Below, one piece after another: positions 7,707-56,485 of a stretch of 64,000 nt of DNA; within the stretch, counting starts at the first letter, position 1; the number at the start of each line of letters is the position of its first letter. Position numbers and translations under genes: made by a program. The notes beneath the pieces are model-generated. The model was not told where the DNA came from, made no database searches, and worked only from the letters and a program-made list of their open reading frames with translations. The DNA comes from Alphaproteobacteria bacterium (GTDB lineage Bacteria > Pseudomonadota > Alphaproteobacteria > RF32 > CAG-239), in the NCBI GenBank assembly GCA_045577985.1, contig JAZNJJ010000023.1:1986-65985 (forward strand). Direction: 5' to 3'.

Positions 7707-10700
7707 TTACCATACATACTTAATATTTCCACCAACACCCCAAGCATTATACTCAGATCCGAAGGTGTAATTTCCGAAGGCTCCTACAGAGAAGTTCTCG
7801 ATTAACTCTGCATCAGCTCCTATTTCTATACGACCTAATGTGTCATCTTCTATCGTTTCTTCAAATTCTTTTGAAGCAACAGTAACTTTTCCACCACTAG
7901 AAAGGGTTTGAATAATTGATGGTTTGATATAACCTGTTGTAGGTAGTTGACGTTCATTATTAAATTGATACTCAAATTTAATACCTGCTTCCAGTTCTAT
8001 GTCATGAATATCATCAAAACCAACTTCTTTTTCAGTACTATCAGTTAAATCATCAAACTTAATATAATCATATGTTGCTTTAATTGATGGTGTTAATACC
8101 GAACGTCGAGTTGTACGTATATCATAACCAATTTCTGCTTGAGCTCCGATATTTAAGCCTTTTGTTGAAGCAGTTACACTGTTGTCAGCTTTTACATCGA
8201 CATCTTGTTGCCCACCATAAACAACACCATTCATATATAAGTTACCAAAATATTTTCGATAATAAATTCCTGCTATAGCACTGGAAATATCCAGTTCACT
8301 ACCTTGGTTTGAAAAGTATTTTTCGCCTTTTCCCTCGTTTTCATACTTTCCTTTACGATATGAACCGAAGATACCAAACATATCACTATGAGTTGGTTGA
8401 TAATCAAAACCAAAATCTATACCATATACAGTTACGTCTGTTTCAATAGGTTTATCAAATGAACCAATACGGAATACTGGCTTTGCCCAAATTCTTGCTT
8501 TGTTATCATCACTGGTATATCGGCAGTAGCGATTATAACACATATCACTATAACAATCGCATCGTCCTTTATTTGTTCTTGAAATATCCAACATTATTGA
8601 ACGAGTTTGTTCTATTGCTGAACGTGGTAAATCAATATATGCAATCACTTCCGGACTTAATGCTGTTATATCTCTATATAAAAACCAATCATAAACAAGG
8701 CCATTTTGTTCATATCCAACATTGATTTCATATAAATTATTTACAACAAAAGTATTAAACTTATATTCAGATAAACTTTGCTCTGCCTGTGTTTGAGCAA
8801 AATATATTTTCTGTTCGTCCATGGTTAATGTATTTTGATTATCAAATACAACATTTGTTGTTCCATAAATACGATTATTAATTGTTATAACATCTGCTGT
8901 ATATGAAGGGTTATCGACATCAATGCGTATTGTTCCATCATTACTGGTTAAAGTATTTATTTCTATTTTTGATGTTACACCATCTCCCAAGTCAATTAAT
9001 CCTGTATTTATTACATTATTTGCCAAAACGATATTAGAGCTTGAAGTTGTTGCTCTATATGTGAGCTTGGCTCCGCGAGATATATCAAAATCATTGTTAA
9101 GAAGTGTATCTGTTGTATCTAAATTTATATATGAACCTCCAGCCATATTAATTGTATTATTACTAAAATTCATCGTTGGTTCATAATCTATATAACCACT
9201 ACTACCTAAATTTAACTGAGTATTACTTATATTGTATTTACCATTTCCACCAAATGTTGAATTTAGTACAACTTGAGTTAATGATGGAGAAATTGATTTT
9301 GGATGTATATTGCTTATTACAGCCCCTTTCATTGTATTTACAACCGAATTTGGCGAATCTCCAGAAATTGTAACTTCTCCTAAATTATAAACATCATCAG
9401 TGCTTGTATTAAATATTAACTTTGCTTTATCTTTTAGTTCAATATTAACGCCGGCATTTGCTTCATTATATATTGCACCGCCCTGATTAGATAAAGCTTC
9501 ATTATTATTAAACATTAAACTATTATTATCTTCTAATGTTACTGAAATATTTGCATCACTCGTATTATAAATAGCTGCTCCTTTTTGAGCCTTATTTGAA
9601 GCAAATAATAACTCTGATGTTTGTGCGGTGGTAAGATTTTCTATTTGAATATTGGCTTTTTCATTATAAATTGCTCCACCATTGTTACTTACATTATTTG
9701 ATGAAAAACTAATTGCAGAGTTATTACCTAATTGCAGTAAAACTGTACTTTCATCAGTATTATATATTGCACCGCCGTTTTTGGCACTATTTGAAGCAAA
9801 TTTTAATGAAGAAGAATTATTTGCCGTTAATGTAAGAGTTCCTGTTGAAGTGCTACTATTATATATGGCTCCACCATTTTCAGCAGCTTTATTTGAATTA
9901 AATTCAATATCTCCACCGGCTGACTTTAATGTCAAATATGAAGTAATTGATGAAGTCCCTAAAGCTACGCTTTGACCATTTGCACTATTATATATTGCAC
10001 CTCCATTTAGAGCCTCATTATTATTGAATACGATACTCTTATTATCTACTATACTTTCAATATTTAGTTGTCCGGTGCTTCCGTTATATATAGCTCCACC
10101 AAAATAATTCTTTGTGGTTGTTGCATTATTTGAGGTTACTACTATTTTGTTATTTTCAAATATAACATCCGATGATTGATTGCTTATTTTTAATAATGAA
10201 ATTGATGAATTTGCTCCATTATTATAAATTGCTCCACCATATGCATTGTTTGAAGTACCATTTTCAGTTACTTGAATTTGATTATTTTTAAAGCTGGTAT
10301 CAATAATATTCGTTTGCACATTTACGTTTGCATTGTAAATTGCTCCACCATAACCAGCTATTTTCGTTTTAACAATATTTCCATCAAATAAACTAGATTT
10401 TATATTTGATGTTGCCGTATTTTCAATCATATTAGCTAAGCCACCACCTACAGCATTACTGCCGTCTGAAATATTGGATGTAAAGCTTGCTCCAGTTATA
10501 TCTAAAGTTCCCATATTTCCTATCGCACCACCCGCAGACATTAATGAACCGCCTAGTGCTTGGTTACCGCTAAACTTGATCTCTTGAGTTGTTCCATCTA
10601 TCGATAAATTTCCGCTTGAATGATTTAATATTGCTCCACCACTAGAAAATGCTGCATCAGCTTTGTTATTTATAAATTCAGCTCCGGCAAGAATATCTAA

Positions 10701-12269
10701 TTGTGCAATTTGTGAAGTTGTTTCAGAAACATTACCATTATAAATAGCTCCACCAAATGCCTTATTTGTTTCTGAAGACGTTGAAGATGATTTAGTAGTG
10801 TTATTTGAATATGTATCTCCGCTAGATGTATAGTCTTTTGAGTTCATTATAGCACCACCTAAAGCAGAACCTACATTACTTTCAGCTTTGTTTGTTGAAA
10901 AACTTTTTGAATCAGATGATAATGTTCCAAAATTTGCAATAGCTCCTCCGGCAGAAATACTTTGTGTTGTTCCCGTGCTATTTGTATAGTTTTGAGTATA
11001 CGTAGCTTTATTTACAGCAGAACCATAATTGGCAAAAGCTCCACCTAATGCACCACTGGTACTACTTCCGGCACTTACATCTGCATGATTGCCTGTAAAT
11101 GAGCCGTGAACATCCATTACACCTTCAGTATCATTATATAATGCTCCTCCTTGGGCATTATTTTGGGCTGAAACATAGTTATTTTCATAAGTGATAACTG
11201 CATCTGATGATGTGGTTACAAATTTATCATTATACAGAGCTCCTCCATATGCAGAACCTCCTGATGCAATATTTGATTGCGCGTAATTGTCTTTAAATTC
11301 AATTTTACCTTCTAATATTAGTTGACCACCATTTGTTTGATTAAAGCTTACTGTATCATTATGAATTGCACCACCATATGCATTATCACCAATGGCAAAA
11401 TTGCCAATATATTTATCATTGTTTGTGGTATATTTACCTGTATTATATACAGCTCCTCCAGAAGCAATGTTTGAAGCAGATGTTCCGCCCCAAGCATTTT
11501 TTACATTTGTATCTAATCCGGCGAAATCAATATTACCGGCATGATTATTTGTATATGTATTATTGCTTGAGCTTAATATACCTTGTCCTGTATTTGGAGA
11601 TCCGTTAAAAATAGCTCCGCCTCGAGCAGTTTCATCACTCATAACATAGTTATTAGAAAAGGTTGAATTGTCTATTGTTGCCTCTGTGGTACTATAATTG
11701 GCAATAACACCACCAACTGTTCCCCAAGAATCATCTTGATAATCACATACACCCCCAAAACATGAAGCACTATTATTAGAAAAATCGGTATTTACAACTT
11801 TTAATATGGCATCATCACCAGCTGTATTTCCATTGGAAACCACGCTTCCACCGTTGTATAATATGTAGGCGTCCATATTATGTCTATTTGAAATTTGAGC
11901 TCTACTGTTATCTTCGACAATAGCTCCCGTGCTACTGTCATATTTATAACCAATTTGAACAGTTCCCATATTCAACAACCAAGAATAATTACTCCCACCA
12001 TTCGAATATATTCCTGCTGTATAACTTCCATTGACGTATAATTTACTTACTGCACTTGTATCACCATTTATGGATGTACCCATAGCATCTAACGGATTAC
12101 CATAATTCGGAGTATTAAATACAGATGAATCCATTGCGACACCAGCTGCATTGGCATTAAGAGAAAATAAAACGCTTCCCATACAGATGTTTAATAAAAA
12201 GCACTTTTTTAGAATACTTCTATATTGTGAACTAAGAGACCTTATTGCTCTTCGACTCAATTTTAACAT
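7707..12269 (-). CDS. Autotransporter (type Va) with a Pmp-type GGAIYN/FxxN repeat passenger, 1520 aa
   Basis: Signal peptide ..SVLFSLNANA|AG. There are dozens of GGA[IL][YFM]N and F.(N)N repeats. The C-terminal about 280 aa is a beta-barrel ending in ..GGNIKYVW. I moved the start to the ATG at 12269, which is preceded by AAGGAGG overlapping the stop of the upstream paralogue. Confidence 0.85.
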   Translation of the reverse strand: MLKLSRRAIRSLSSQYRSILKKCFLLNICMGSVLFSLNANAAGVAMDSSVFNTPNYGNPLDAMGTSINGDTSAVSKLYVNGSYTAGIYSNGGSNYSWLLNMGTVQIGYKYDSSTGAIVEDNSRAQISNRHNMDAYILYNGGSVVSNGNTAGDDAILKVVNTDFSNNSASCFGGVCDYQDDSWGTVGGVIANYSTTEATIDNSTFSNNYVMSDETARGGAIFNGSPNTGQGILSSSNNTYTNNHAGNIDFAGLDTNVKNAWGGTSASNIASGGAVYNTGKYTTNNDKYIGNFAIGDNAYGGAIHNDTVSFNQTNGGQLILEGKIEFKDNYAQSNIASGGSAYGGALYNDKFVTTSSDAVITYENNYVSAQNNAQGGALYNDTEGVMDVHGSFTGNHADVSAGSSTSGALGGAFANYGSAVNKATYTQNYTNSTGTTQSISAGGAIANFGTLSSDSKSFSTNKAESNVGSALGGAIMNSKDYTSSGDTYSNNTTKSSSTSSETNKAFGGAIYNGNVSETTSQIAQLDILAGAEFINNKADAAFSSGGAILNHSSGNLSIDGTTQEIKFSGNQALGGSLMSAGGAIGNMGTLDITGASFTSNISDGSNAVGGGLANMIENTATSNIKSSLFDGNIVKTKIAGYGGAIYNANVNVQTNIIDTSFKNNQIQVTENGTSNNAYGGAIYNNGANSSISLLKISNQSSDVIFENNKIVVTSNNATTTKNYFGGAIYNGSTGQLNIESIVDNKSIVFNNNEALNGGAIYNSANGQSVALGTSSITSYLTLKSAGGDIEFNSNKAAENGGAIYNSSTSTGTLTLTANNSSSLKFASNSAKNGGAIYNTDESTVLLQLGNNSAISFSSNNVSNNGGAIYNEKANIQIENLTTAQTSELLFASNKAQKGAAIYNTSDANISVTLEDNNSLMFNNNEALSNQGGAIYNEANAGVNIELKDKAKLIFNTSTDDVYNLGEVTISGDSPNSVVNTMKGAVISNIHPKSISPSLTQVVLNSTFGGNGKYNISNTQLNLGSSGYIDYEPTMNFSNNTINMAGGSYINLDTTDTLLNNDFDISRGAKLTYRATTSSSNIVLANNVINTGLIDLGDGVTSKIEINTLTSNDGTIRIDVDNPSYTADVITINNRIYGTTNVVFDNQNTLTMDEQKIYFAQTQAEQSLSEYKFNTFVVNNLYEINVGYEQNGLVYDWFLYRDITALSPEVIAYIDLPRSAIEQTRSIMLDISRTNKGRCDCYSDMCYNRYCRYTSDDNKARIWAKPVFRIGSFDKPIETDVTVYGIDFGFDYQPTHSDMFGIFGSYRKGKYENEGKGEKYFSNQGSELDISSAIAGIYYRKYFGNLYMNGVVYGGQQDVDVKADNSVTASTKGLNIGAQAEIGYDIRTTRRSVLTPSIKATYDYIKFDDLTDSTEKEVGFDDIHDIELEAGIKFEYQFNNERQLPTTGYIKPSIIQTLSSGGKVTVASKEFEETIEDDTLGRIEIGADAELIENFSVGAFGNYTFGSEYNAWGVGGNIKYVW

Positions 12270-12279
12270 ATTCCCCTCC

Positions 12280-15200
12280 TTACCATGTATAACGCATATG
12301 TCCACCAAATTCAAAACCGTTATAATCTGATCCGATTGTATAATTACCGAAACCACCAACGGTAAAGTTTGGCATTAGTGTTGCTTCTCCACCCATTTCT
12401 AAACGCACTGCTGTTTCATTTTGCAATGTGTCATCAATAGCAATATCTTTTATGGTAACCTCACCACCATTTTCTATTAATTGAATAATTGATGGTTTGA
12501 TATAACCTGTTGTTGGGTATTGTCTTTCATTATTAAACTGATATTCATATTTAACACCCAACTCTAATTCAATATCATGAATATCTTCTATGGTTACTTT
12601 TTTATCTAATGTATCAGTGAAATCATCAAAATTCACATAATCATACGAAACTCTCAAACTTGGAGTTATTGTTTCTCTTTTATTTAGACGAGATGTATAA
12701 CCTGTTTCAAATTGTAAACCTGTTGCTATACCAGATGTTGATGAACGGACATTCTCATCAGTATCCATACGGGCTTTTTGCTGTCCGCCATAAATAGATC
12801 CATTGAAATACATATTTCCAAAATATTTGCTATAATACAGACCTACAAGCACACTTTCCATATCCATTGTACGTGAACCATATGCAAAATAATCTCCATC
12901 TGATCCACCATCAGCATAATCGCCTTTTCGATATGAAACTACAAAACCTGTTTTTCCATTTGATGAGGTGTTTACATTTAATCCAAAATCTACACCCCAT
13001 ATCTTTGCATCAATTTCACTTGGAGCCTTAAATGTACTAATACGTGATATAGGATTTGCCCATAAACTTACTTTTGCATTTTCATCTACGACTTTTCGCA
13101 AAGTTCCTTTATAACCATATTCATAGCGAACTCGCGGAGTGTTATTATTTTTTGCCACATCATACATTACAGATCGAGTTTGTTCAACAGCTGCTCGTGG
13201 TAAAATGATATAGTTCAAAGCTTCTGTTCTTACAGCGCCACTTCGATATAAATACCAATCCATAACTCCATCGTGAACAGATGTTCCTTGTTCAATTATG
13301 AATACATAATTTTCTGAATCAAACACAAATGAAAAGTCTTCAGGATTTACATTTTCATTTGTCTGAGCAAAAGTAATTTTATGTCCTTTTTCTAATTGAT
13401 CTATTCCATCAAACGTAAAATTAGTTACTCCGGATACATTACCACTTATTACAATTTTATCTGATGTATTTTTATTTACATCAATATATACCCAACCACC
13501 ATTTGCCTCTAAATTAGTAACATTTATAGTTGATGATATACCATCTTTCAAATTCAGCACTCCGGAATGCGATAGTGTTTCCGCTAAAACAATATCCGGA
13601 GATGCCTCTGAACCAACATAATTAACAATTGCATCTGTGGTAATATTTAAGTTTGTTGCCGAAAATACATCTAAAGAATCTACATTTAAAACAGATGTTC
13701 CATTTAATGTTATCGAGCTATTAGCAAAATTTAATTTCTGAGCTCCATCAATTAAACCATTGTTTATCGTAAAATTCACCTCTTTGGCATATAATGAACC
13801 AGTTCCTTCAATATTAGAATTATAAAGGAATTCATTTTTATTCGTACCAAAAACATTTATTTCACCCAAATTATAAATATTATCAGTTGCTGTTTCAAAA
13901 TTTAATATTGATGTTCCGGATAATGTTAAATTAATTATCGAATCGGTATCATTATATATAGCTCCACCTTTTTCTGAAGCACTATTCCCTCTAAAAATTA
14001 TAGAATTTCCGCCATCAACATATAAATCTATTTTACTATTGTCAGTATTATATATTGCACCACCATTATCAGCAATATTATTTCCAAAACCTATTCCCGT
14101 ATTTGTAAATAATATAAATTCTCCGCCTGTGTTATATATTCCACCACCCAAAGAAGCTTTATTTTCTTTAATAACAACCTGAGAGGAGTTTGTATATTCC
14201 ATATTTACAACTCCGCTATTATAAATAGCTCCACCTCTTCCGGTTTTTGCATCATTCCAATTGAAAGCTACTGTTTTTACTTCATTTCCACTTATTTCTA
14301 TGTTTCCATCATTATAAATTGCACCACCATCAATGGCACTACCATCTGTTGCAACATTATAATTCATCATAATTTCTGCATTGTTATTCAAATCTATATG
14401 AAACGTTGCATTCTCTTTATTATAAATTGCACCACCTGCTTGAGAAACACTATTTTCTTTAAACTCCAAAGTTCCGTTTTCTACTGCAATATTTGTAACA
14501 GCTTTATTACTATTATATATCGCACCACCCATCTCTGCACTATTTTTAGAGAATGATAAAAATCCATCTTGCGCAACATTCATTTGCAAAAATGATGTTA
14601 CAGAATCAGTACCAACAGTTTTGCTACTATTATCTGCCAAATTATATATTGCGCCACCTTTTTGTGCGTAGTTCTCAGAAAAAACTATTTGATCTGTAGA
14701 AGCATCTATTTCAAGCTGTCCATATTGACCATTATAAATTGCGCCTCCCTTTGTTTCCGCCTCACCTGAAAAACCCGCATCTAAAACAGCTTTATTTCCA
14801 CTAAATACGATAGACCCTCTATCTCCTACGCCTATGTACATTTTAGAAATCTCATCAGTTATGGCATTATGGTATATTGCTCCACCATAAGCTTTTCCCT
14901 CTGTTGAATCCCCATATACTGTTATTACGTTATCTCTAAAAGATACTCCCGCAAGATTAACAGCGGTAGTATTTGTTGTTAGTGCATAAACAGCTAAACC
15001 ACCGCCTCGACCTTCTTTACTTACACCAATTTGATTACCCGTAATTGTTGAATTAGTTAAAGAAAAAGATGAAAAATCAGATGTGTGAGTATGATATATA
15101 CCTGCACCATTAGCATATTGAGAATTTATTCTATTAGAAGAAACTGTGATTCCACTAATATCCATAGAGCCTTTATTGTAAATAGCCCCACCATGCACAA

Positions 15201-25259: not shown

Positions 25260-26639
25260 ATGTTGAAAAAATCATTAGTTATTTATGCTTTAATATTTAG
25301 TTTGCTTGGTAGCGTTGCTGAGGCAAAGAAAACAACAGAAACTCAAGAAGAACAGATTAATACTTATGAATTATTAAATCTTTTGGGCGAAGTAATGGAA
25401 CGAACAAAGATGTCATATGTTGAAGAATTAACTGATAAAAAATTGATTGAATCAGCTATCAACGGTATGCTTATTTCATTGGATCCTCATTCCAGCTACT
25501 TAAATTCTGATGATTTTAAATATATGAATGAACAAACTAAAGGTAAATTTGGTGGTTTGGGTATTGAAATTACTATGGAGAATGGTGTTGTGAAAATAAT
25601 TTCTCCAATAGATGATACTCCGGCGGCAAAAGCAGGAATAAAAGCCGGTGATTATATTACAGACATTGAAGGCGAAACAGTGATTGGCTTAACATTAAAT
25701 GATGTGGTCAATAAATTACGTGGAAAAATTGGAACAAAAGTAACAATAACTATACGTAGAGCAAATGAAAAGCCTTTTGAAGTTACACTAAAACGTGATG
25801 AAATAAAAATTCAATCGGTTAAAAGCGAATTGAAAAATGAAGATATTTTGTATGTACGAATCTCCTCGTTTAGTGAAGATATTGATGATATAATCGAAAA
25901 AGCAGTAAAAGATGCTCAAAAGAAATTAAAAAATAAATTAGCCGGTTTAGTTATTGACGTAAGAAATAATCCGGGAGGGTTATTAGACCAAGCTGTAGGT
26001 GTTTCTGATTTATTTTTAGAAAAAGGAGAAATTGTTTCTACTCGCTCAAGAAATGAAGAAGATACTGTTAAGTATTCAGCAAATGCTGGTGATATTGCAA
26101 AGGGCTTGCCTATTGTAGTAATGATTAATGAGGGGTCTGCTTCGGCATCTGAAATTTTAGCGGGGGCATTACAAGATCATCATAGAGCGATTATATTAGG
26201 AGAAAAATCTTTTGGTAAAGGATCTGTACAAACAGTCATACCTTTGAGAAATAATGCAGCAATGCGAATCACAACAGCAAGATACTACACTCCATCAGGC
26301 AATTCTATTCAAGCAAAAGGTATTGAGCCTGATGTGGTTGTAAAGCCTGCAAAAATAGAAGAAATTGAATCTTATGGGTTAAATTTAAGTGAAGCAGATT
26401 TGCAAGGTGCGTTAAAAAATGAACAAACCGATAAGGATAAAAAGAAGAATAAGAAGAATAAAAATACAAACAAAAAATCAGATAAAAGTAGTGCTGATGA
26501 TGAATATGATGATAGCAAAGATTATCAGTTAGTTCGAGCATTAGATTTAGTTAAAGCACTATATTTATATGGGCAAAATGATAATGCAGTTGTAAAATCT
26601 GAAGATAAAAAAGAAGAAAAAACAGAGGCAAAAAAATAA
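25260..26639 (+). CDS. ctpA: Carboxy-terminal processing protease (S41) with a Lys-rich C-terminal tail
   Basis: PDZ (GGLGIEI..GVVKIISPIDDTPAAKAGIKAGDYI), DVRNNPGGLL, INEGSASASEI and GEKSFGKGSVQ. Confidence 0.92.
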   Translation: MLKKSLVIYALIFSLLGSVAEAKKTTETQEEQINTYELLNLLGEVMERTKMSYVEELTDKKLIESAINGMLISLDPHSSYLNSDDFKYMNEQTKGKFGGLGIEITMENGVVKIISPIDDTPAAKAGIKAGDYITDIEGETVIGLTLNDVVNKLRGKIGTKVTITIRRANEKPFEVTLKRDEIKIQSVKSELKNEDILYVRISSFSEDIDDIIEKAVKDAQKKLKNKLAGLVIDVRNNPGGLLDQAVGVSDLFLEKGEIVSTRSRNEEDTVKYSANAGDIAKGLPIVVMINEGSASASEILAGALQDHHRAIILGEKSFGKGSVQTVIPLRNNAAMRITTARYYTPSGNSIQAKGIEPDVVVKPAKIEEIESYGLNLSEADLQGALKNEQTDKDKKKNKKNKNTNKKSDKSSADDEYDDSKDYQLVRALDLVKALYLYGQNDNAVVKSEDKKEEKTEAKK

Positions 26640-27118
26640 TGTCTGAATGGTTCAGAAAAAATGCCGGAGTTGTTGTTTTTAATAAGCACAAAAAAGTTTT
26701 ATTGTGCAAACGTGTAGATGTTGCAAATTCATGGCAATTTCCGCAAGGGGGAATTGAAGAAAATGAATCCCCTTCTGAGGCCGGAAAACGTGAGTTATTT
26801 GAAGAAACATCTATAAAAAGTGTTGAACTAATAAAAACTTTAGCAAATCCTGTACGATATTATTTTACACCGGAAATTATAGCTTCGATGAAAAAAAGAG
26901 GATTTACAAATTCAGGACAAGATATTTATTGGTCTTTGTTTTATTTTTATGGAGATGAAACAGAAATTAATTTACAAACTGAACATCCTGAATTTGTAGA
27001 GTTTAAATGGGGTACTTTGGCGGAAGCAGAAAAATTAATTGTTGAGTTTAAAAAACAAGCTTATGTTGTAGCTAAAGAAGAATTTGAAGAAATTATTGCA
27101 AGACATGAAATAAGATGA
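26639..27118 (+). CDS. rppH: RNA pyrophosphohydrolase (Nudix)
   Basis: WQFPQGGIEENESPSEAGKRELFEETSI Nudix box and an RppH-like length. The ATG overlaps the ctpA stop (TAATG). Confidence 0.88.
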   Translation: MSEWFRKNAGVVVFNKHKKVLLCKRVDVANSWQFPQGGIEENESPSEAGKRELFEETSIKSVELIKTLANPVRYYFTPEIIASMKKRGFTNSGQDIYWSLFYFYGDETEINLQTEHPEFVEFKWGTLAEAEKLIVEFKKQAYVVAKEEFEEIIARHEIR

Positions 27119-27137
27119 TTAATTTTATTTATTTAAA

Positions 27138-27171
27138 ATGTCCGAAAAAAGGGTTCCTTTTTTTCGGACAT
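27138..27171. repeat. 34-nt palindrome A1, atgtccgaaaaaagggttcctttttttcggacat, followed by a T run
   Basis: Read directly from the sequence. It can form a hairpin of about 13 bp, and with the trailing T8 it also looks like the rppH terminator. Confidence 0.9.
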
Positions 27172-27242
27172 TTTTTTTATTAAAAATTCTTTCTTTCACA
27201 ACGTAACATCAATAAGTTAAATTTTTCTAAATTTGAAATTTT

Positions 27243-27275
27243 ATGTCCGAAAAAAAGGAACCCTTTTTTCGGACA
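27243..27275. repeat. Palindrome B1, the exact reverse complement of A1 (33 of 34 positions; only the terminal base differs)
   Basis: atgtccgaaaaaaaggaacccttttttcggaca. The asymmetric centre (A7-GGAACCC-T6 versus A6-GGGTTCC-T7) shows it is the inverted copy of A1. Confidence 0.9.
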
Positions 27276-27382
27276 ATCGCTGAGGGATAATATATATTAT
27301 AGTATATATTTTATCATTTTTTTAAGTTTTTACGGTATATTACTACTTATGTAGTGAGAGCCGTTTTGTGTAGAAGGAGATT

Positions 27383-28006
27383 ATGATGAATCATACTAAT
27401 CAATCCGGCAGATCTATGATTGAAATGCTCGGAGTTTTAGCGATTATCGGCGTATTGTCCGTTGGTGGAATCGCCGGTTATTCAAAAGCAATGATGAAGT
27501 TTAAAATTAATAAATCTATTGATCAAATTTCACAAATTGTGGCAAATACTCGTACACTTTATGCCAGACAGAAGAACTATGCTAACATTAGTAATAAAAT
27601 TATGTATAAAGCTAATTTAGCACCAAGAGAAATGTTTGAAGATGGTTCAGGTAGCTATTATGCAACCAATGCTTTTGGTGGTGGAGTAGAAATTTTCCCA
27701 ATTGGTTCAAAATTTTATGCTGAAAATGAAACAAATAAAGGATTTACCGTTGGATATTACGGACTTCCCGATGAAGCGTGTATTGAACTTGCAACACAAG
27801 ATTGGGGAAGTGATACATCTTCTGGTCTGTTAAGCGTTGGTATTAATACCGGTTCTGCTTGGGTAGGATGTCAAGGAGAGAATTATGGCAATCCACTAGC
27901 TTGCCCTGGTGGTTCAAATATATCTATTCCAATGCCTGTTGATATAGCGGTTGATGCATGTGATTGTGGGTATTCCGGATGTGATTTATATTTTTCTTAC
28001 AGGTAA
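27383..28006 (+). CDS. Type IV pilin-like protein (prepilin-type N-terminus), paralogue 1
   Basis: MMNHTNQSG|RSMIEMLGVLAIIGVLSVGGIAGYSKAM.. has a short polar leader ending in Gly, Glu at +5, and a hydrophobic helix of about 20 aa. The C-terminal part is Cys-rich (6 Cys). AGGAGA RBS. Confidence 0.7.
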   Translation: MMNHTNQSGRSMIEMLGVLAIIGVLSVGGIAGYSKAMMKFKINKSIDQISQIVANTRTLYARQKNYANISNKIMYKANLAPREMFEDGSGSYYATNAFGGGVEIFPIGSKFYAENETNKGFTVGYYGLPDEACIELATQDWGSDTSSGLLSVGINTGSAWVGCQGENYGNPLACPGGSNISIPMPVDIAVDACDCGYSGCDLYFSYR

Positions 28007-28013
28007 TATTTTC

Positions 28014-28041
28014 AAGCCCCTCATTAAGGGGCTTAATTTTT
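28014..28041. terminator. Terminator between the pilin-like gene and the convergent ruvC
   Basis: aagcccct-catta-aggggctt followed by a T run. Confidence 0.7.
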
Positions 28042-37696: not shown

Positions 37697-37978
37697 GTGA
37701 CTAGATCTGAATTAACAGAAAGAATTGCAGCAAAAATGCCTAATTTAACTATTAAAGATATTGAAAATATCGTAAATGTTATTTTTGATAAACTTACATC
37801 TGCTTTGGTAGCTGGTGATAGAGTTGAGCTTCGTGGCTTTGGGGCATTTTCTATTAGAACAAGAAAACCAAGAATTGCTATCAATCCAAAAAATAAAAAA
37901 AGAGTAGAAGTACCTACAAAAAATATTGTTCACTTCAAAACCGGTAAAGAATTACACGATAGATTGAATGCAAAATAG
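37697..37978 (+). CDS. ihfB: Integration host factor subunit beta
   Basis: (M)TRSELTERIAAKMPNL..GDRVELRGFGAFSIRTRKPRIAINPKN..VHFKTGKELHDRLN. GTG start at 37697 after GAGGAAAAA. Confidence 0.85.
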   Translation: MTRSELTERIAAKMPNLTIKDIENIVNVIFDKLTSALVAGDRVELRGFGAFSIRTRKPRIAINPKNKKRVEVPTKNIVHFKTGKELHDRLNAK

Positions 37979-55662: not shown

Positions 55663-55690
55663 AAAACTCTGTAAAATACAGAGTTTTTTT
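55663..55690 (+). terminator. Terminator after chpT
   Basis: aaaactctgta-aaa-tacagagtttt followed by a T run. Confidence 0.8.
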
Positions 55691-55704: not shown

Positions 55705-55738
55705 ATGTCCGAAAAAAGGGATCCTTTTTTTCGGACAT
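55705..55738. repeat. 34-nt palindrome A2, atgtccgaaaaaagggatcctttttttcggacat
   Basis: It is identical to A1 except for the central base (T to A) and is followed by a T run. Confidence 0.9.
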
Positions 55739-55810
55739 TTTTTATGTAAAAATCAAATTCAAATTCATAATAAAATCAACAATTTAAATTTCAAGTGAAA
55801 AATGAATTTT

Positions 55811-55843
55811 ATGTCCGAAAAAAAGGATCCCTTTTTTCGGACA
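55811..55843. repeat. Palindrome B2, the exact reverse complement of A2
   Basis: atgtccgaaaaaaaggatcccttttttcggaca. It is identical to B1 except for the complementary central base (A to T). Confidence 0.9.
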
Positions 55844-55861: not shown

Positions 55862-56485
55862 ATGAATAAAATGTGTAGAACCACAAACCAAACTGGTCGT
55901 TCAATGATTGAAATGCTTGGAGTTTTGGCGATTATAGGCGTGTTATCTGTGGGTGGTATTGCTGGCTATTCCAAAGCAATGATGAAATTTAAAATAAATA
56001 AAACAATCGACCAAATTTCACAAATGGCTCAAAATACTCGGACGTTATACGCTAGACAAAGAAATTATGGTAATTTAAGTTCCAGAATTTTATATAAAGC
56101 TAATTTAGCTCCTCGAGAAATGTTTGAAGGAGGCTCTGGAGATTATAGCATGACTAATGCTTTTGGTGGATCCGTTGATATTGGAACGCGTGGCAAAAAT
56201 GTTGATGGCGATAATAAAGCATTTTTTATTCATTTCAATGGCTTGCCAGAAGAAGCGTGTATAGAATTAATGACACAAGACTGGGGAAGTGATACAGGTT
56301 CCGGATTAATTGCTGTTGGTACTTTTAATGTTTCATTTTATTATGTTGGATGCTCCGGAGATGCTGATAGGGGTATAGCTTGTCCAGGGGGAGCAGAAGT
56401 ATCGGTACCAATGCCTGTTGATGTGGCGGTTGATACTTGTAATTGCAGTGAAACAGGATGCACTTTTGAACTTAAGTATTATTAA
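55862..56485 (+). CDS. Type IV pilin-like protein, paralogue 2
   Basis: MNKMCRTTNQTG|RSMIEMLGVLAIIGVLSVGGIAGYSKAMMKFKINK.. I moved the start from 55802, because the track ORF reads through palindrome B2, to the ATG at 55862, which follows GAGGAG. The C-terminus is Cys-rich, as in paralogue 1. Confidence 0.7.
   Translation: MNKMCRTTNQTGRSMIEMLGVLAIIGVLSVGGIAGYSKAMMKFKINKTIDQISQMAQNTRTLYARQRNYGNLSSRILYKANLAPREMFEGGSGDYSMTNAFGGSVDIGTRGKNVDGDNKAFFIHFNGLPEEACIELMTQDWGSDTGSGLIAVGTFNVSFYYVGCSGDADRGIACPGGAEVSVPMPVDVAVDTCNCSETGCTFELKYY

What the first reader, a model, noticed from the sequence alone, without database searches (positions are those of the whole stretch)
27135..27382. Locus 1 of the inverted palindrome pair sits at the rppH / pilin-like / ruvC junction
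Seen directly:
- A1 (27138-27171) starts 20 nt after the rppH stop and is followed by T8, so it can act as the rppH terminator.
- B1 (27243-27275) has no T run and lies 107 nt upstream of the pilin-like ATG.
- In locus 2 the equivalent B2 ends only 18 nt before the ATG, directly abutting the RBS. There, any promoter must lie in or upstream of the spacer, and B2 must be transcribed as a 5' hairpin.
- The locus 1 spacer contains a plausible forward promoter, TTCACA-N17-TAAATT.
- In locus 2, chpT has its own separate terminator (55663-55690) ahead of A2. This argues that A belongs to the pilin cassette and is not just the terminator of the upstream gene.

Inference: the unit made of A, spacer, B, the pilin gene and its terminator behaves as a self-contained cassette that has been duplicated or inserted at two unrelated chromosomal sites. 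Here it separates ruvC from where ruvAB would commonly follow.
Basis: partly seen in the sequence, partly recalled or inferred. Interest (0 to 1): 0.65.

Follow-up and report, generated by a model that had tools for sequence, protein, structure and literature searches.

The report
Mini flip-switch before pilin genes
The two palindromes downstream of rppH are the recombination sites of a tiny invertible DNA switch, one of about 36 nearly identical switches in front of the pilus-subunit genes of an uncultured gut alphaproteobacterium; this is a known kind of on/off switch in an unusually compact and numerous form.

Summary
A1 (27139-27170) and B1 (27244-27275) are perfect inverted copies 73 nt apart, and locus 2 is built the same way. 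But this is not a two-copy cassette. The 1.54-Mb genome holds 36 such pairs and 4 single palindromes. 32 pairs sit in front of a variable type IVb-like pilin gene, usually 17-18 nt from the start codon.

The spacer is flipped relative to the gene at 4 of these 32 loci. Contigs from other samples show the same loci flipped: locus 1 in one contig, and the pilin/acetyltransferase locus in four. Others show the locus reduced to one hybrid palindrome made of the two outer half-sites: locus 2 in 7 of 7 contigs, and also the dnaJ and pheA loci. This places the crossover in the central 8 bp or less.

The genome encodes two recombinases that pass NCBI's model for the Mpi master DNA invertase.

Best reading: a multi-locus set of invertible promoter switches (invertons) for pilin phase or antigenic variation. 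In the orientation seen in the window, A1 also serves as the rppH terminator. Which orientation is ON is unresolved. The claims that the pilin gene belongs to the mobile unit and that the unit displaced ruvAB are not supported.

Novelty: a new variant of a known kind.

The parts
26639..27118 (+). rppH-like NUDIX hydrolase gene, the upstream neighbour of the switch
   Evidence: ORF; Pfam NUDIX on the identical protein in other contigs
27139..27170 (.). A1, the gene-distal 32-bp palindromic recombination site. It reads TGTCCGAAAAAA-GGGTTCCT-TTTTTTCGGACA: 12-bp arms around an 8-bp centre with an asymmetric TT core. With the following T run (27171-27178) it also forms an intrinsic terminator for rppH in this orientation.
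   Evidence: 136 of 144 arms in the genome are identical.
27171..27243 (.). 73-nt spacer. Together with the inner half of each palindrome it forms the invertible segment, 105 bp from site centre to site centre.
   Evidence: Flipped at this same locus in contig L009 from another sample. Spacer length is 73-75 nt in all 36 copies, while spacer sequence identity averages 62%.
27195..27223 (+). Candidate outward promoter TTCACA-N17-TAAATT. The -10 lies 20 nt before B1, the same geometry as the clear promoter in the related G022 switch.
   Evidence: Not above chance on its own. A minus-strand alternative exists, with -10 TACGTT at 27205-27200.
27208..27219 (+). Most conserved spacer block, ATCAATAAGTTA, at the spacer centre. 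It fits the IHF consensus WATCAANNNNTTR apart from the first base and overlaps the candidate -10.
   Evidence: columns at least 95% conserved: A..TAA..TCAA.A..TTAA. The IHF reading is inference.
27244..27275 (.). B1, the gene-proximal palindromic site. It is the exact reverse complement of A1 (centre AGGAACCC), has no U run, and would form a 5'-UTR hairpin in transcripts leaving the spacer.
27276..27382 (+). 107-nt leader unique to locus 1 (the other loci have 17-18 nt). It contains TATATTACTACTT, which resembles the motif upstream of pilin genes in congeners.
27383..28006 (+). Type IVb-like pilin gene (207 aa), one of at least 40 paralogues. The N-terminus GRSMIEMLGVLAIIGVLSVGGIAGYSKAM is invariant and the rest is variable.
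   Evidence: Pfam Bundlin 51.5 bits and PilS 50.4 bits, above the cut-offs; paralogue analysis
28014..28034 (+). Terminator of the pilin gene
55706..55737 (.). A2, the gene-distal site of locus 2 (centre GGGATCCT, symmetric AT core)
55738..55811 (.). 74-nt spacer of locus 2. It is absent (single hybrid palindrome) in 7 of 7 contigs from other samples that cross this locus.
   Evidence: The best promoter-like match here is on the minus strand: TTGAAA-16-TATTAT, 55794-55767.
55812..55843 (.). B2, the gene-proximal site of locus 2 (centre AGGATCCC)
55862..56485 (+). Pilin paralogue of locus 2
37697..37969 (+). Integration host factor beta-like gene, a possible accessory bending protein
   Evidence: tblastn 44% identity to E. 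coli IhfB. NCBIfam IHF-beta scores 111.3 bits on a partial sequence against a cut-off of 115.

Best explanation
A1-spacer-B1 is a miniature invertible DNA switch (inverton). It is one of 36 in this genome.

**Sites and recombinase**
- Each 32-bp palindrome is the binding and crossover site of a site-specific recombinase.
- The most likely enzyme is one or both of the two Mpi-family serine invertases encoded on contig C28.
- The two sites of a pair are in inverted orientation, 105-107 bp apart from centre to centre (about 10 helical turns).

**What recombination does**
- Recombination at the site centres flips the 73-nt spacer together with the two inner half-sites.
- Where the core dinucleotide is the symmetric AT, the same reaction can also delete the spacer. 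This leaves one hybrid palindrome in front of a gene that, on this model, then lacks its promoter.

**How expression is controlled (inferred)**
- The spacer carries an outward-reading promoter.
- In one orientation the promoter reads through the gene-proximal palindrome, which is a hairpin without a U run, into the RBS and pilin gene.
- In the other orientation it reads into the gene-distal palindrome, whose outer flank supplies a short U run.

**Locus 1 in the window**
- In the orientation seen here, A1 plus the spacer's T run also terminates rppH transcription.

**Expected outcome**
- Locus-by-locus phase variation of a family of at least 40 variable type IVb pilin genes.

**Shown:** the repeat family; the link to pilin genes; both orientations and the deleted form at the same loci; half-sites that travel with the spacer; presence of Mpi-family genes.

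**Inferred:** which enzyme acts; that switching occurs within one population; the promoter and its direction; any role for IHF.
For: **Census**
- 76 palindrome units make up 36 pairs plus 4 solo sites.
- Of 40 pilin genes, 28 have the pair in one orientation, 4 have it flipped, 2 have a solo site, 3 have none and 3 lie at contig edges.

**Same locus, different states in independent assemblies**
- Locus 1 is forward in 6 contigs and flipped in L009.
- The locus at C28:144302 points to the acetyltransferase gene in this genome and to the pilin gene in 4 long contigs made by two assemblers.
- Locus 2 is solo in 7 of 7 contigs.
- The dnaJ locus is forward in 5 contigs, solo in 2, and flipped in 1 where only 6 nt of spacer are visible. 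The pheA locus is solo in 5 and has one flipped-type contig.

**Crossover position**
- In the flipped copy at C12:31661 the inner half-sites (A6GGG against A7GG) moved with the spacer.
- At all three loci, nearly every solo site equals the outer-left plus the outer-right half-site; the exception is L064 at locus 2.

**Constraint**
- 136 of 144 arms are identical, while spacers are 62% identical on average.
- Spacer length is fixed at 73-75 nt.

**Recombinase**
- C28:47715-48416 and C28:69375-69959 score 291.6 and 291.1 bits against NF009949 'master DNA invertase Mpi family', cut-off 272.
- Their best PDB match is Gin invertase.
- NF009949 passes its cut-off in only 4 of 201 sampled Alphaproteobacteria and in 1 of 14 control genomes.
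- The family is present in 44 of 50 congeners.

**Related switch**
- A related switch in congener G022 has a clear promoter, TTGAAA-N17-TAAACT/TATACT, 19-20 nt before a palindrome. It reads into a gene.

**Terminator role**
- The scan calls A1 terminator-like and its hairpin folds stably.
Against: - No raw reads could be laid. Logan contigs break at the palindromes, and no RNA or PacBio runs were found. Switching within a single population is therefore not shown, only differences between assemblies and between paralogues.
- Promoter direction is unresolved. The best sigma-70-like scores are equal on the two strands (8.2 against 8.3 of 12). In locus 2 the better match points away from the gene.
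- 105 bp between sites is very short for a serine invertase synapse.
- No Fis homologue was found.
- The link between the Mpi-like enzymes and these sites rests only on their presence in the genome and loose proximity: they lie at C28 47.7 and 69.5 kb, and switches lie at 50.5, 54.5 and 62.9 kb.
- Some evidence sits at contig ends, where assemblies are least reliable: L122 shows 6 nt of spacer, L076 has 36 nt of flank, and L009 ends within the second palindrome.
Confidence: 0.8

Rival explanations
1. A static control region: A is a bidirectional terminator or insulator, the spacer holds a fixed promoter, and B is a stabilising 5'-UTR hairpin. There is no DNA rearrangement, and the copies arose by duplication together with the pilin genes.
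For: - A1 is a good terminator.
- B has no U run.
- A forward promoter-like site exists.
- 28 of 32 loci share one orientation.
Against: - The same loci occur flipped or without the spacer in other assemblies.
- Inner half-sites travel with the spacer.
- The arms show no compensatory variation, as an RNA hairpin would allow, and are sequence-invariant instead.
- Mpi-family invertases are present.
- The RNA roles are compatible with the switch model and do not replace it.
Confidence: 0.07
2. A miniature inverted-repeat transposable element (MITE): a 137-139-bp non-autonomous transposon with 33-bp terminal inverted repeats that has spread through the genome.
For: - It has perfect terminal inverted repeats, a small size and many dispersed copies.
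- It is species-specific: the exact palindrome was found in none of the other 49 congeners, in no other genome of the species-representative collection, and in no JGI metagenome.
Against: - No target-site duplication is seen at the flanks.
- 32 of 36 copies sit at a fixed 17-18 nt from a pilin start codon.
- The empty form is not a clean excision. It is one hybrid palindrome made of the two outer half-sites.
- The element flips in place with both flanks unchanged.
- No transposase is associated with it.
Confidence: 0.04
3. The flipped and solo forms are assembly artefacts caused by a 33-nt inverted repeat present in about 76 copies. The module never rearranges.
For: - Many contigs end at the palindromes.
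- C5:1-250 in this genome is an inverted-duplication artefact.
- Short-k graphs cannot orient a segment that lies between inverted repeats.
Against: - The flipped state at C28:144302 is identical in four 20-33-kb contigs from MEGAHIT (k141) and from another assembler (scaffold-named contigs), and the 33-nt repeat is shorter than that k.
- Solo forms recur in 6-7 independent assemblies per locus, and all but one (L064) have a hybrid centre found in neither parental site.
- The reference genome itself contains 4 flipped pairs and 2 solo sites in front of pilin genes.
Confidence: 0.04

Closest known systems
Mpi-controlled invertible promoters of Bacteroides fragilis (capsular polysaccharide and other surface loci)
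   Same: - A global serine invertase of the same NCBIfam family (NF009949) is present.
- Many short IR-flanked segments are dispersed around the chromosome upstream of surface-structure genes.
- In B. fragilis, Mpi is the recombinase responsible for the promoter inversions (PMC10403206).
   Different: - The host is an alphaproteobacterium. The Mpi family passes its cut-off in only 4 of 201 sampled genomes of the class.
- The targets are about 32 type IVb pilin genes, not polysaccharide operons.
- The sites are full 32-bp palindromes that double as RNA hairpins or terminators.
- The invertible segment is only 105-107 bp.
- Spacer-deleted solo forms are common.
- Action of the enzyme on these sites is untested.
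Mycoplasma penetrans mpl (P35) lipoprotein family
   Same: Each member of a large surface-protein multigene family (38 mpl genes) is thought to be switched ON and OFF independently by its own adjacent invertible promoter, at several chromosomal loci (PMC2268961, citing Horino et al. 2003).
   Different: - The candidate recombinases there are Xer-like tyrosine recombinases (PMC2268961); here they are Mpi-family serine recombinases.
- The gene family, phylum and site structure all differ.
hix/gix crossover sites of the Hin/Gin serine invertases
   Same: - The site is dyad-symmetric, with two half-sites ending in an A tract around a central 2-bp core (here 15-2-15).
- The asymmetric TT/AA cores occur in inverted orientation.
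- The best solved-structure match of the recombinase is Gin.
   Different: - Hin and Gin invert kilobase segments and need a Fis-bound enhancer (my own knowledge).
- Here the segment is about 105 bp and no Fis homologue was found.
- Most sites here have a symmetric AT core, which would also allow deletion.
E. coli fimS type 1 fimbrial switch
   Same: An invertible promoter controls a pilus or fimbrial subunit gene. IHF is an accessory bending factor inside that element (my own knowledge), and an IHF-like consensus sits at the spacer centre here.
   Different: - fimS is a single locus of 314 bp with 9-bp repeats, flipped by the tyrosine recombinases FimB and FimE.
- Here there are 36 loci, 32-bp palindromes and probably a serine recombinase.

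Membership tests
Mpi-type multi-locus invertible promoter system | Genome encodes an Mpi-family serine recombinase | tested here: met
   Two genes score 291.6 and 291.1 bits against NF009949, cut-off 272. The model is specific: it passes in 1 of 14 control genomes and 4 of 201 Alphaproteobacteria.
Mpi-type multi-locus invertible promoter system | Many dispersed short segments flanked by inverted repeats, upstream of surface-structure genes | tested here: met
   36 pairs. 32 are next to pilin genes; others are next to an acetyltransferase-like or a glycosyltransferase-like gene.
Mpi-type multi-locus invertible promoter system | The segment exists in both orientations at one locus | tested here: met
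   Seen between assemblies: L009 against the window, and L072-L075 against this genome. Not tested within one sample, because no raw reads were available.
Mpi-type multi-locus invertible promoter system | A promoter lies inside the invertible segment | tested here: inconclusive
   Weak candidates exist on both strands. The promoter is clear only in the related G022 switch. No RNA data.
Mpi-type multi-locus invertible promoter system | The recombinase acts on these sites | not testable with these tools
   Needs genetics or an in vitro assay.
Small serine invertase crossover site (hix/gix type) | Dyad-symmetric site with crossover at a central dinucleotide | tested here: met
   The architecture is 15-2-15. 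Inner half-sites move with the spacer, and solo sites equal the sum of the two outer half-sites with one exception (L064). Resolution is limited to the central 8 bp, so a tyrosine recombinase with a 6-8-bp overlap is not excluded.
Small serine invertase crossover site (hix/gix type) | Fis-bound enhancer | tested here: not met
   tblastn with E. coli Fis gives no hit. IHF alpha, IHF beta and HU homologues are present.
Intrinsic (rho-independent) terminator | Stable GC-containing hairpin followed directly by a U run | tested here: met
   Met for A1 on the + strand: -21.7 kcal/mol followed by U8. Not met for B1, which has no U run.
MITE | Target-site duplication and insertion unrelated to gene function | tested here: not met
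   The flanks show no duplication. 32 of 36 copies lie at a fixed distance from pilin start codons.
Type IVb pilin (Bundlin/PilS) | Pilin domain, class III signal peptide with Glu at +5, and processing and assembly machinery in the genome | tested here: met
   - Pfam Bundlin 51.5 bits and PilS 50.4 bits, above their cut-offs.
- The N-terminus reads G|RSMIE.
- One Peptidase_A24 gene and T2SSE-family ATPase genes are present.

The most novel reading that the evidence does not exclude
The switch has three states, and the promoter piece is mobile.

Because most sites have a symmetric AT core, the recombinase can flip the spacer, and it can also excise it (spacer plus one hybrid palindrome, about 105 bp). 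It could then re-insert the piece at any solo palindrome. A limited pool of promoter cassettes would thus be dealt out among more than 40 pilin genes, and recombination between sites of different loci would reshuffle the chromosome.
Probability: 0.12. Interest if true: 0.85.

Novelty: new variant of a known kind. Interest (0 to 1): 0.55.

Why it matters
Invertible promoters are a main source of surface variation in gut Bacteroidota. This case shows the same logic, with the same recombinase family, in a small-genome uncultured gut alphaproteobacterium. It applies to an expanded type IVb pilin family, with roughly one switch per gene.

The switches are about as small as a DNA inversion can plausibly be. 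They are built from perfect palindromes that also act as transcription terminators or hairpins, and they show a frequent 'deleted' state. That gives a clean natural system for three questions:
- How can a serine invertase synapse sites only 10 helical turns apart?
- How does core symmetry decide between inversion and deletion?
- How does a bacterium choose among dozens of pilins?

There is also a practical point. These elements break assemblies and can be misread as terminators or MITEs.

Tried and rejected
- **Reads on locus 1.** Only Logan contigs were available. They break at the palindromes and cannot give orientation.
- **RNA and PacBio runs.** None were listed, so ON/OFF and within-sample switching could not be tested.
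- **Exact palindrome elsewhere.** It is absent from all other species genomes, from JGI metagenomes and from the other 49 congeners. A first pattern with a plain run of N failed even on the own genome and was replaced by a script.
- **Upstream regions of the best pilin genes in 27 relatives.** No comparable inverted repeats were found, so the module is not ancestral to the gene family.
- **Look-ups that found nothing.** The locus 1 pilin, RpsL and the 357-aa neighbour of C12:31661.
- **Promoter direction by consensus scoring of all 36 spacers.** No difference between strands. T-run and A-run logic gives opposite answers for spacer family III and for families I, II and IV.
- **Rfam.** There was no real family, only sub-threshold miRNA-hairpin hits caused by the inverted repeat.
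- **Tyrosine recombinases.** The two complete chromosomal ones are XerC- and XerD-like, so I treat them as housekeeping. They are not excluded as the acting enzymes.
- **L076 as a possible 19-kb inversion between two switch loci.** Only 36 nt of flank at a contig start support it, so I do not rely on it.

Full report
**1.

A1/B1 (arms 27139-27171 and 27243-27275) and A2/B2 (55706-55738 and 55811-55843) are 33-nt arms, 100% complementary, 71 and 72 nt apart. The motif never occurs in shuffled sequence.

Each arm is itself a near-perfect palindrome: TGTCCGAAAAAA, an 8-nt centre, then TTTTTTCGGACA. The single difference between the two loci (GGGTTCCT against GGGATCCT) is mirrored in the partner site.

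A1 lies 19-20 nt after the rppH stop. It folds at -21.7 kcal/mol as RNA and is followed by a U run, so it is a credible rppH terminator. B1 has no U run and lies 107 nt before the pilin ATG. B2 ends 18 nt before its ATG. chpT has a separate terminator.

**2. It is a genome-wide family, not a pair**

The window is C23:1986-65985 of a 1.54-Mb, 31.6% GC assembly. A script finds 76 palindrome units: 36 pairs with 73-75-nt spacers and 4 single sites.

- 32 pairs abut a gene of about 200-227 aa whose product begins ...GRSMIEMLGVLAIIGVLSVGGIAGYSKAM. The gap is 17-18 nt in most. Locus 1, with 107 nt, is the exception.
- These proteins hit Pfam Bundlin and PilS above the cut-offs. They are invariant over the first 30 mature residues and only 31-82% identical overall.
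- The genome has a prepilin peptidase gene and T2SSE-type ATPase genes.
- All congeners carry 5-76 such pilin genes.
- Relatives are uncultured Alphaproteobacteria MAGs from ruminant and human guts.

**3. The spacer inverts and can be lost**

Relative to the pilin gene, 28 loci have one spacer orientation (F) and 4 the other: C12:31661, C14:17068, C23:74525 and C28:144302.

Independent assemblies from other samples that encode the identical neighbouring protein show the same loci in other states:

| Locus | States seen |
|---|---|
| Locus 1 | F in six contigs; flipped in L009 |
| C28:144302 (divergent) | Points to a hexapeptide acyltransferase-like gene in this genome; points to the pilin gene in four 20-33-kb contigs from two assemblers |
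| Locus 2 | A single palindrome and no spacer in 7 of 7 contigs |
| dnaJ locus | F in five contigs, solo in two, and flipped in one where only 6 nt of spacer are visible |
| pheA locus | Solo in five contigs; one flipped-type contig |

**4. The crossover is in the palindrome centre**

Half-sites come in two forms, A6GGG and A7GG.

- In spacer family III the inner halves are always 6 on one side of the spacer and 7 on the other, whichever way the spacer faces the gene. They therefore moved with it in the flipped copy at C12:31661.
- The solo sites equal the outer-left half plus the outer-right half of the paired form, with one exception. At locus 2, GGGATCCT...AGGATCCC gives GGGATCCC; one of the seven contigs, L064, reads GGGATCCT instead. 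At the dnaJ and pheA loci, GGGATCCC...GGGATCCT gives GGGATCCT.

This is the signature of site-specific recombination within the central 8 bp or less. It is not transposon excision or graph collapse.

Nine pairs have an asymmetric TT/AA core in inverted orientation. The remaining 27 pairs have a symmetric AT core (one, C25:65887, carries a point change in one site), which would chemically permit deletion as well as inversion.

**5. Constraint pattern**

136 of 144 12-nt arms are identical, although the spacers have diverged to 62% mean identity (minimum 35%). Spacer length nevertheless stays at 73-75 nt, so site centres are 105-107 bp apart, about ten helical turns.

Sequence-invariant arms without compensatory changes argue for protein recognition, not a mere RNA hairpin.

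The only spacer block conserved at 95% or more is central: A..TAA..TCAA.A..TTAA. In 24 of 36 copies it reads ATCAAN4TTR at position 38 of 73. That matches the core of the IHF consensus WATCAANNNNTTR (my own knowledge of the consensus). IHF alpha, IHF beta and HU homologues are encoded, and Fis is not. A sharp bend at the spacer centre would explain how sites this close can synapse. This is inference, and the block also overlaps a candidate -10.

**6. Recombinase**

- The genome has XerC- and XerD-like genes, two other tyrosine recombinases and three small serine recombinases.
- Two paralogues on C28 (234 and 226 aa) pass NCBIfam NF009949, 'master DNA invertase Mpi family', with 291 bits against a cut-off of 272. 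Their closest solved structure is Gin.
- NF009949 passes its cut-off in only 4 of 201 sampled Alphaproteobacteria, all with 1.2-2-Mb genomes, and in 1 of 14 control genomes. The family occurs in 44 of 50 congeners, in 1-9 copies.
- In B. fragilis, Mpi is the enzyme that flips the capsule promoters (PMC10403206).
- That the C28 enzymes act on these palindromes is inferred.

**7. Promoter and direction**

A forward candidate sits in a homologous position in all spacer families: (T/C)TCAnA-N17-TAAnnn, with the -10 exactly 20-21 nt before the gene-proximal palindrome.

The related switch of congener G022 has an unmistakable promoter with the same geometry, TTGAAA-N17-TAAACT/TATACT, 19-20 nt before the palindrome. 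It lies between divergent genes.

Against this, the best match in locus 2 is on the other strand (TTGAAA-16-TATTAT), and consensus scores do not separate the strands. I put about 0.6 on F being ON. This is not settled.

**8.

- yebC-ruvC is conserved in the genus, but the region beyond ruvC is variable. ruvA follows in none of 14 congeners.
- Three congeners (G012, G014, G002) have a pilin gene convergent on ruvC. The G012 and G014 upstream regions could be read and carry no palindromes; G002's upstream region runs off the contig.
- Locus 1 keeps a 107-nt leader with a motif like the one upstream of pilin genes in congeners.
- So here the switch was probably added in front of a resident pilin gene. 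A pilin cassette did not displace ruvAB.

**9. Comparison and verdict**

The system works like the Mpi invertons of Bacteroides and like the one-switch-per-gene mpl family of Mycoplasma penetrans (PMC2268961). It meets the testable membership features of an Mpi-type system, except for demonstration of the promoter and of enzyme action.

The differences are:
- the host class;
- the target, a pilin multigene family;
- perfect palindromic sites that double as terminators;
- the very small 105-bp invertible segment;
- the common deleted state.

It is a new variant of a known kind.

Earlier notes of this scan reached the same general reading for other copies. One note preferred a static terminator-promoter-hairpin model, which the cross-sample states found here contradict.

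Noticed in passing
L058-L061, L059:800-1110 (G022, same genus): A small related switch family. Palindromes of the form GTCC(R)AAAAAAACGG(Y)CGTTTTTTT(Y)GGAC lie about 150 nt apart, with a strong promoter TTGAAA-N17-TATACT/TAAACT reading through one palindrome. The switch sits between divergent genes for Cys-rich secreted proteins, and contigs break inside the spacer.
   Followed up: partly
L092, L027, L028 (G012, G014, G004), upstream of pilin genes: A conserved, structured leader of about 250 nt that ends in a hairpin plus T run just before the RBS. It looks like an attenuator or riboswitch-type leader. No Rfam family matches it.
   Followed up: partly
window 27330-27345; L019, L020, L047, L031: A motif like AGTACTATTACTTT recurs about 80-110 nt upstream of pilin genes across the genus. 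The locus 1 leader has a similar TATATTACTACTT. It may be a native promoter or a regulator site.
   Followed up: no
L001:3700-4400: In one sample the 5' part of the locus 1 pilin gene continues into the 3' part of the C13 pilin gene and then prfA/hisS, instead of ruvC. This is either recombination between paralogous pilin genes or a chimeric assembly.
   Followed up: partly
G000:C5:1-250: The contig start reads flank, then element, then the reverse complement of the same flank. This is an inverted-duplication assembly artefact at a switch. 8 of 80 contig ends lie within 400 nt of a palindrome.
   Followed up: yes
L076:1-90: A single palindrome joins the acetyltransferase side of C28:144302 to 36 nt that match the left flank of C28:163439. 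This is the junction expected from a roughly 19-kb inversion between two switch loci, but the flank is very short and lies at a contig end.
   Followed up: partly
window 9400-15000: Dozens of copies of a motif like ATTATATATTGCACCACC. On the minus strand this is a GGAIYN-type repeat, presumably a very large repetitive surface protein.
   Followed up: no
G000:C29:36963-40300: A 485-aa tyrosine integrase and a 184-aa resolvase-type serine recombinase lie 2.5 kb apart. This is probably an integrated mobile element unrelated to the switches.
   Followed up: no
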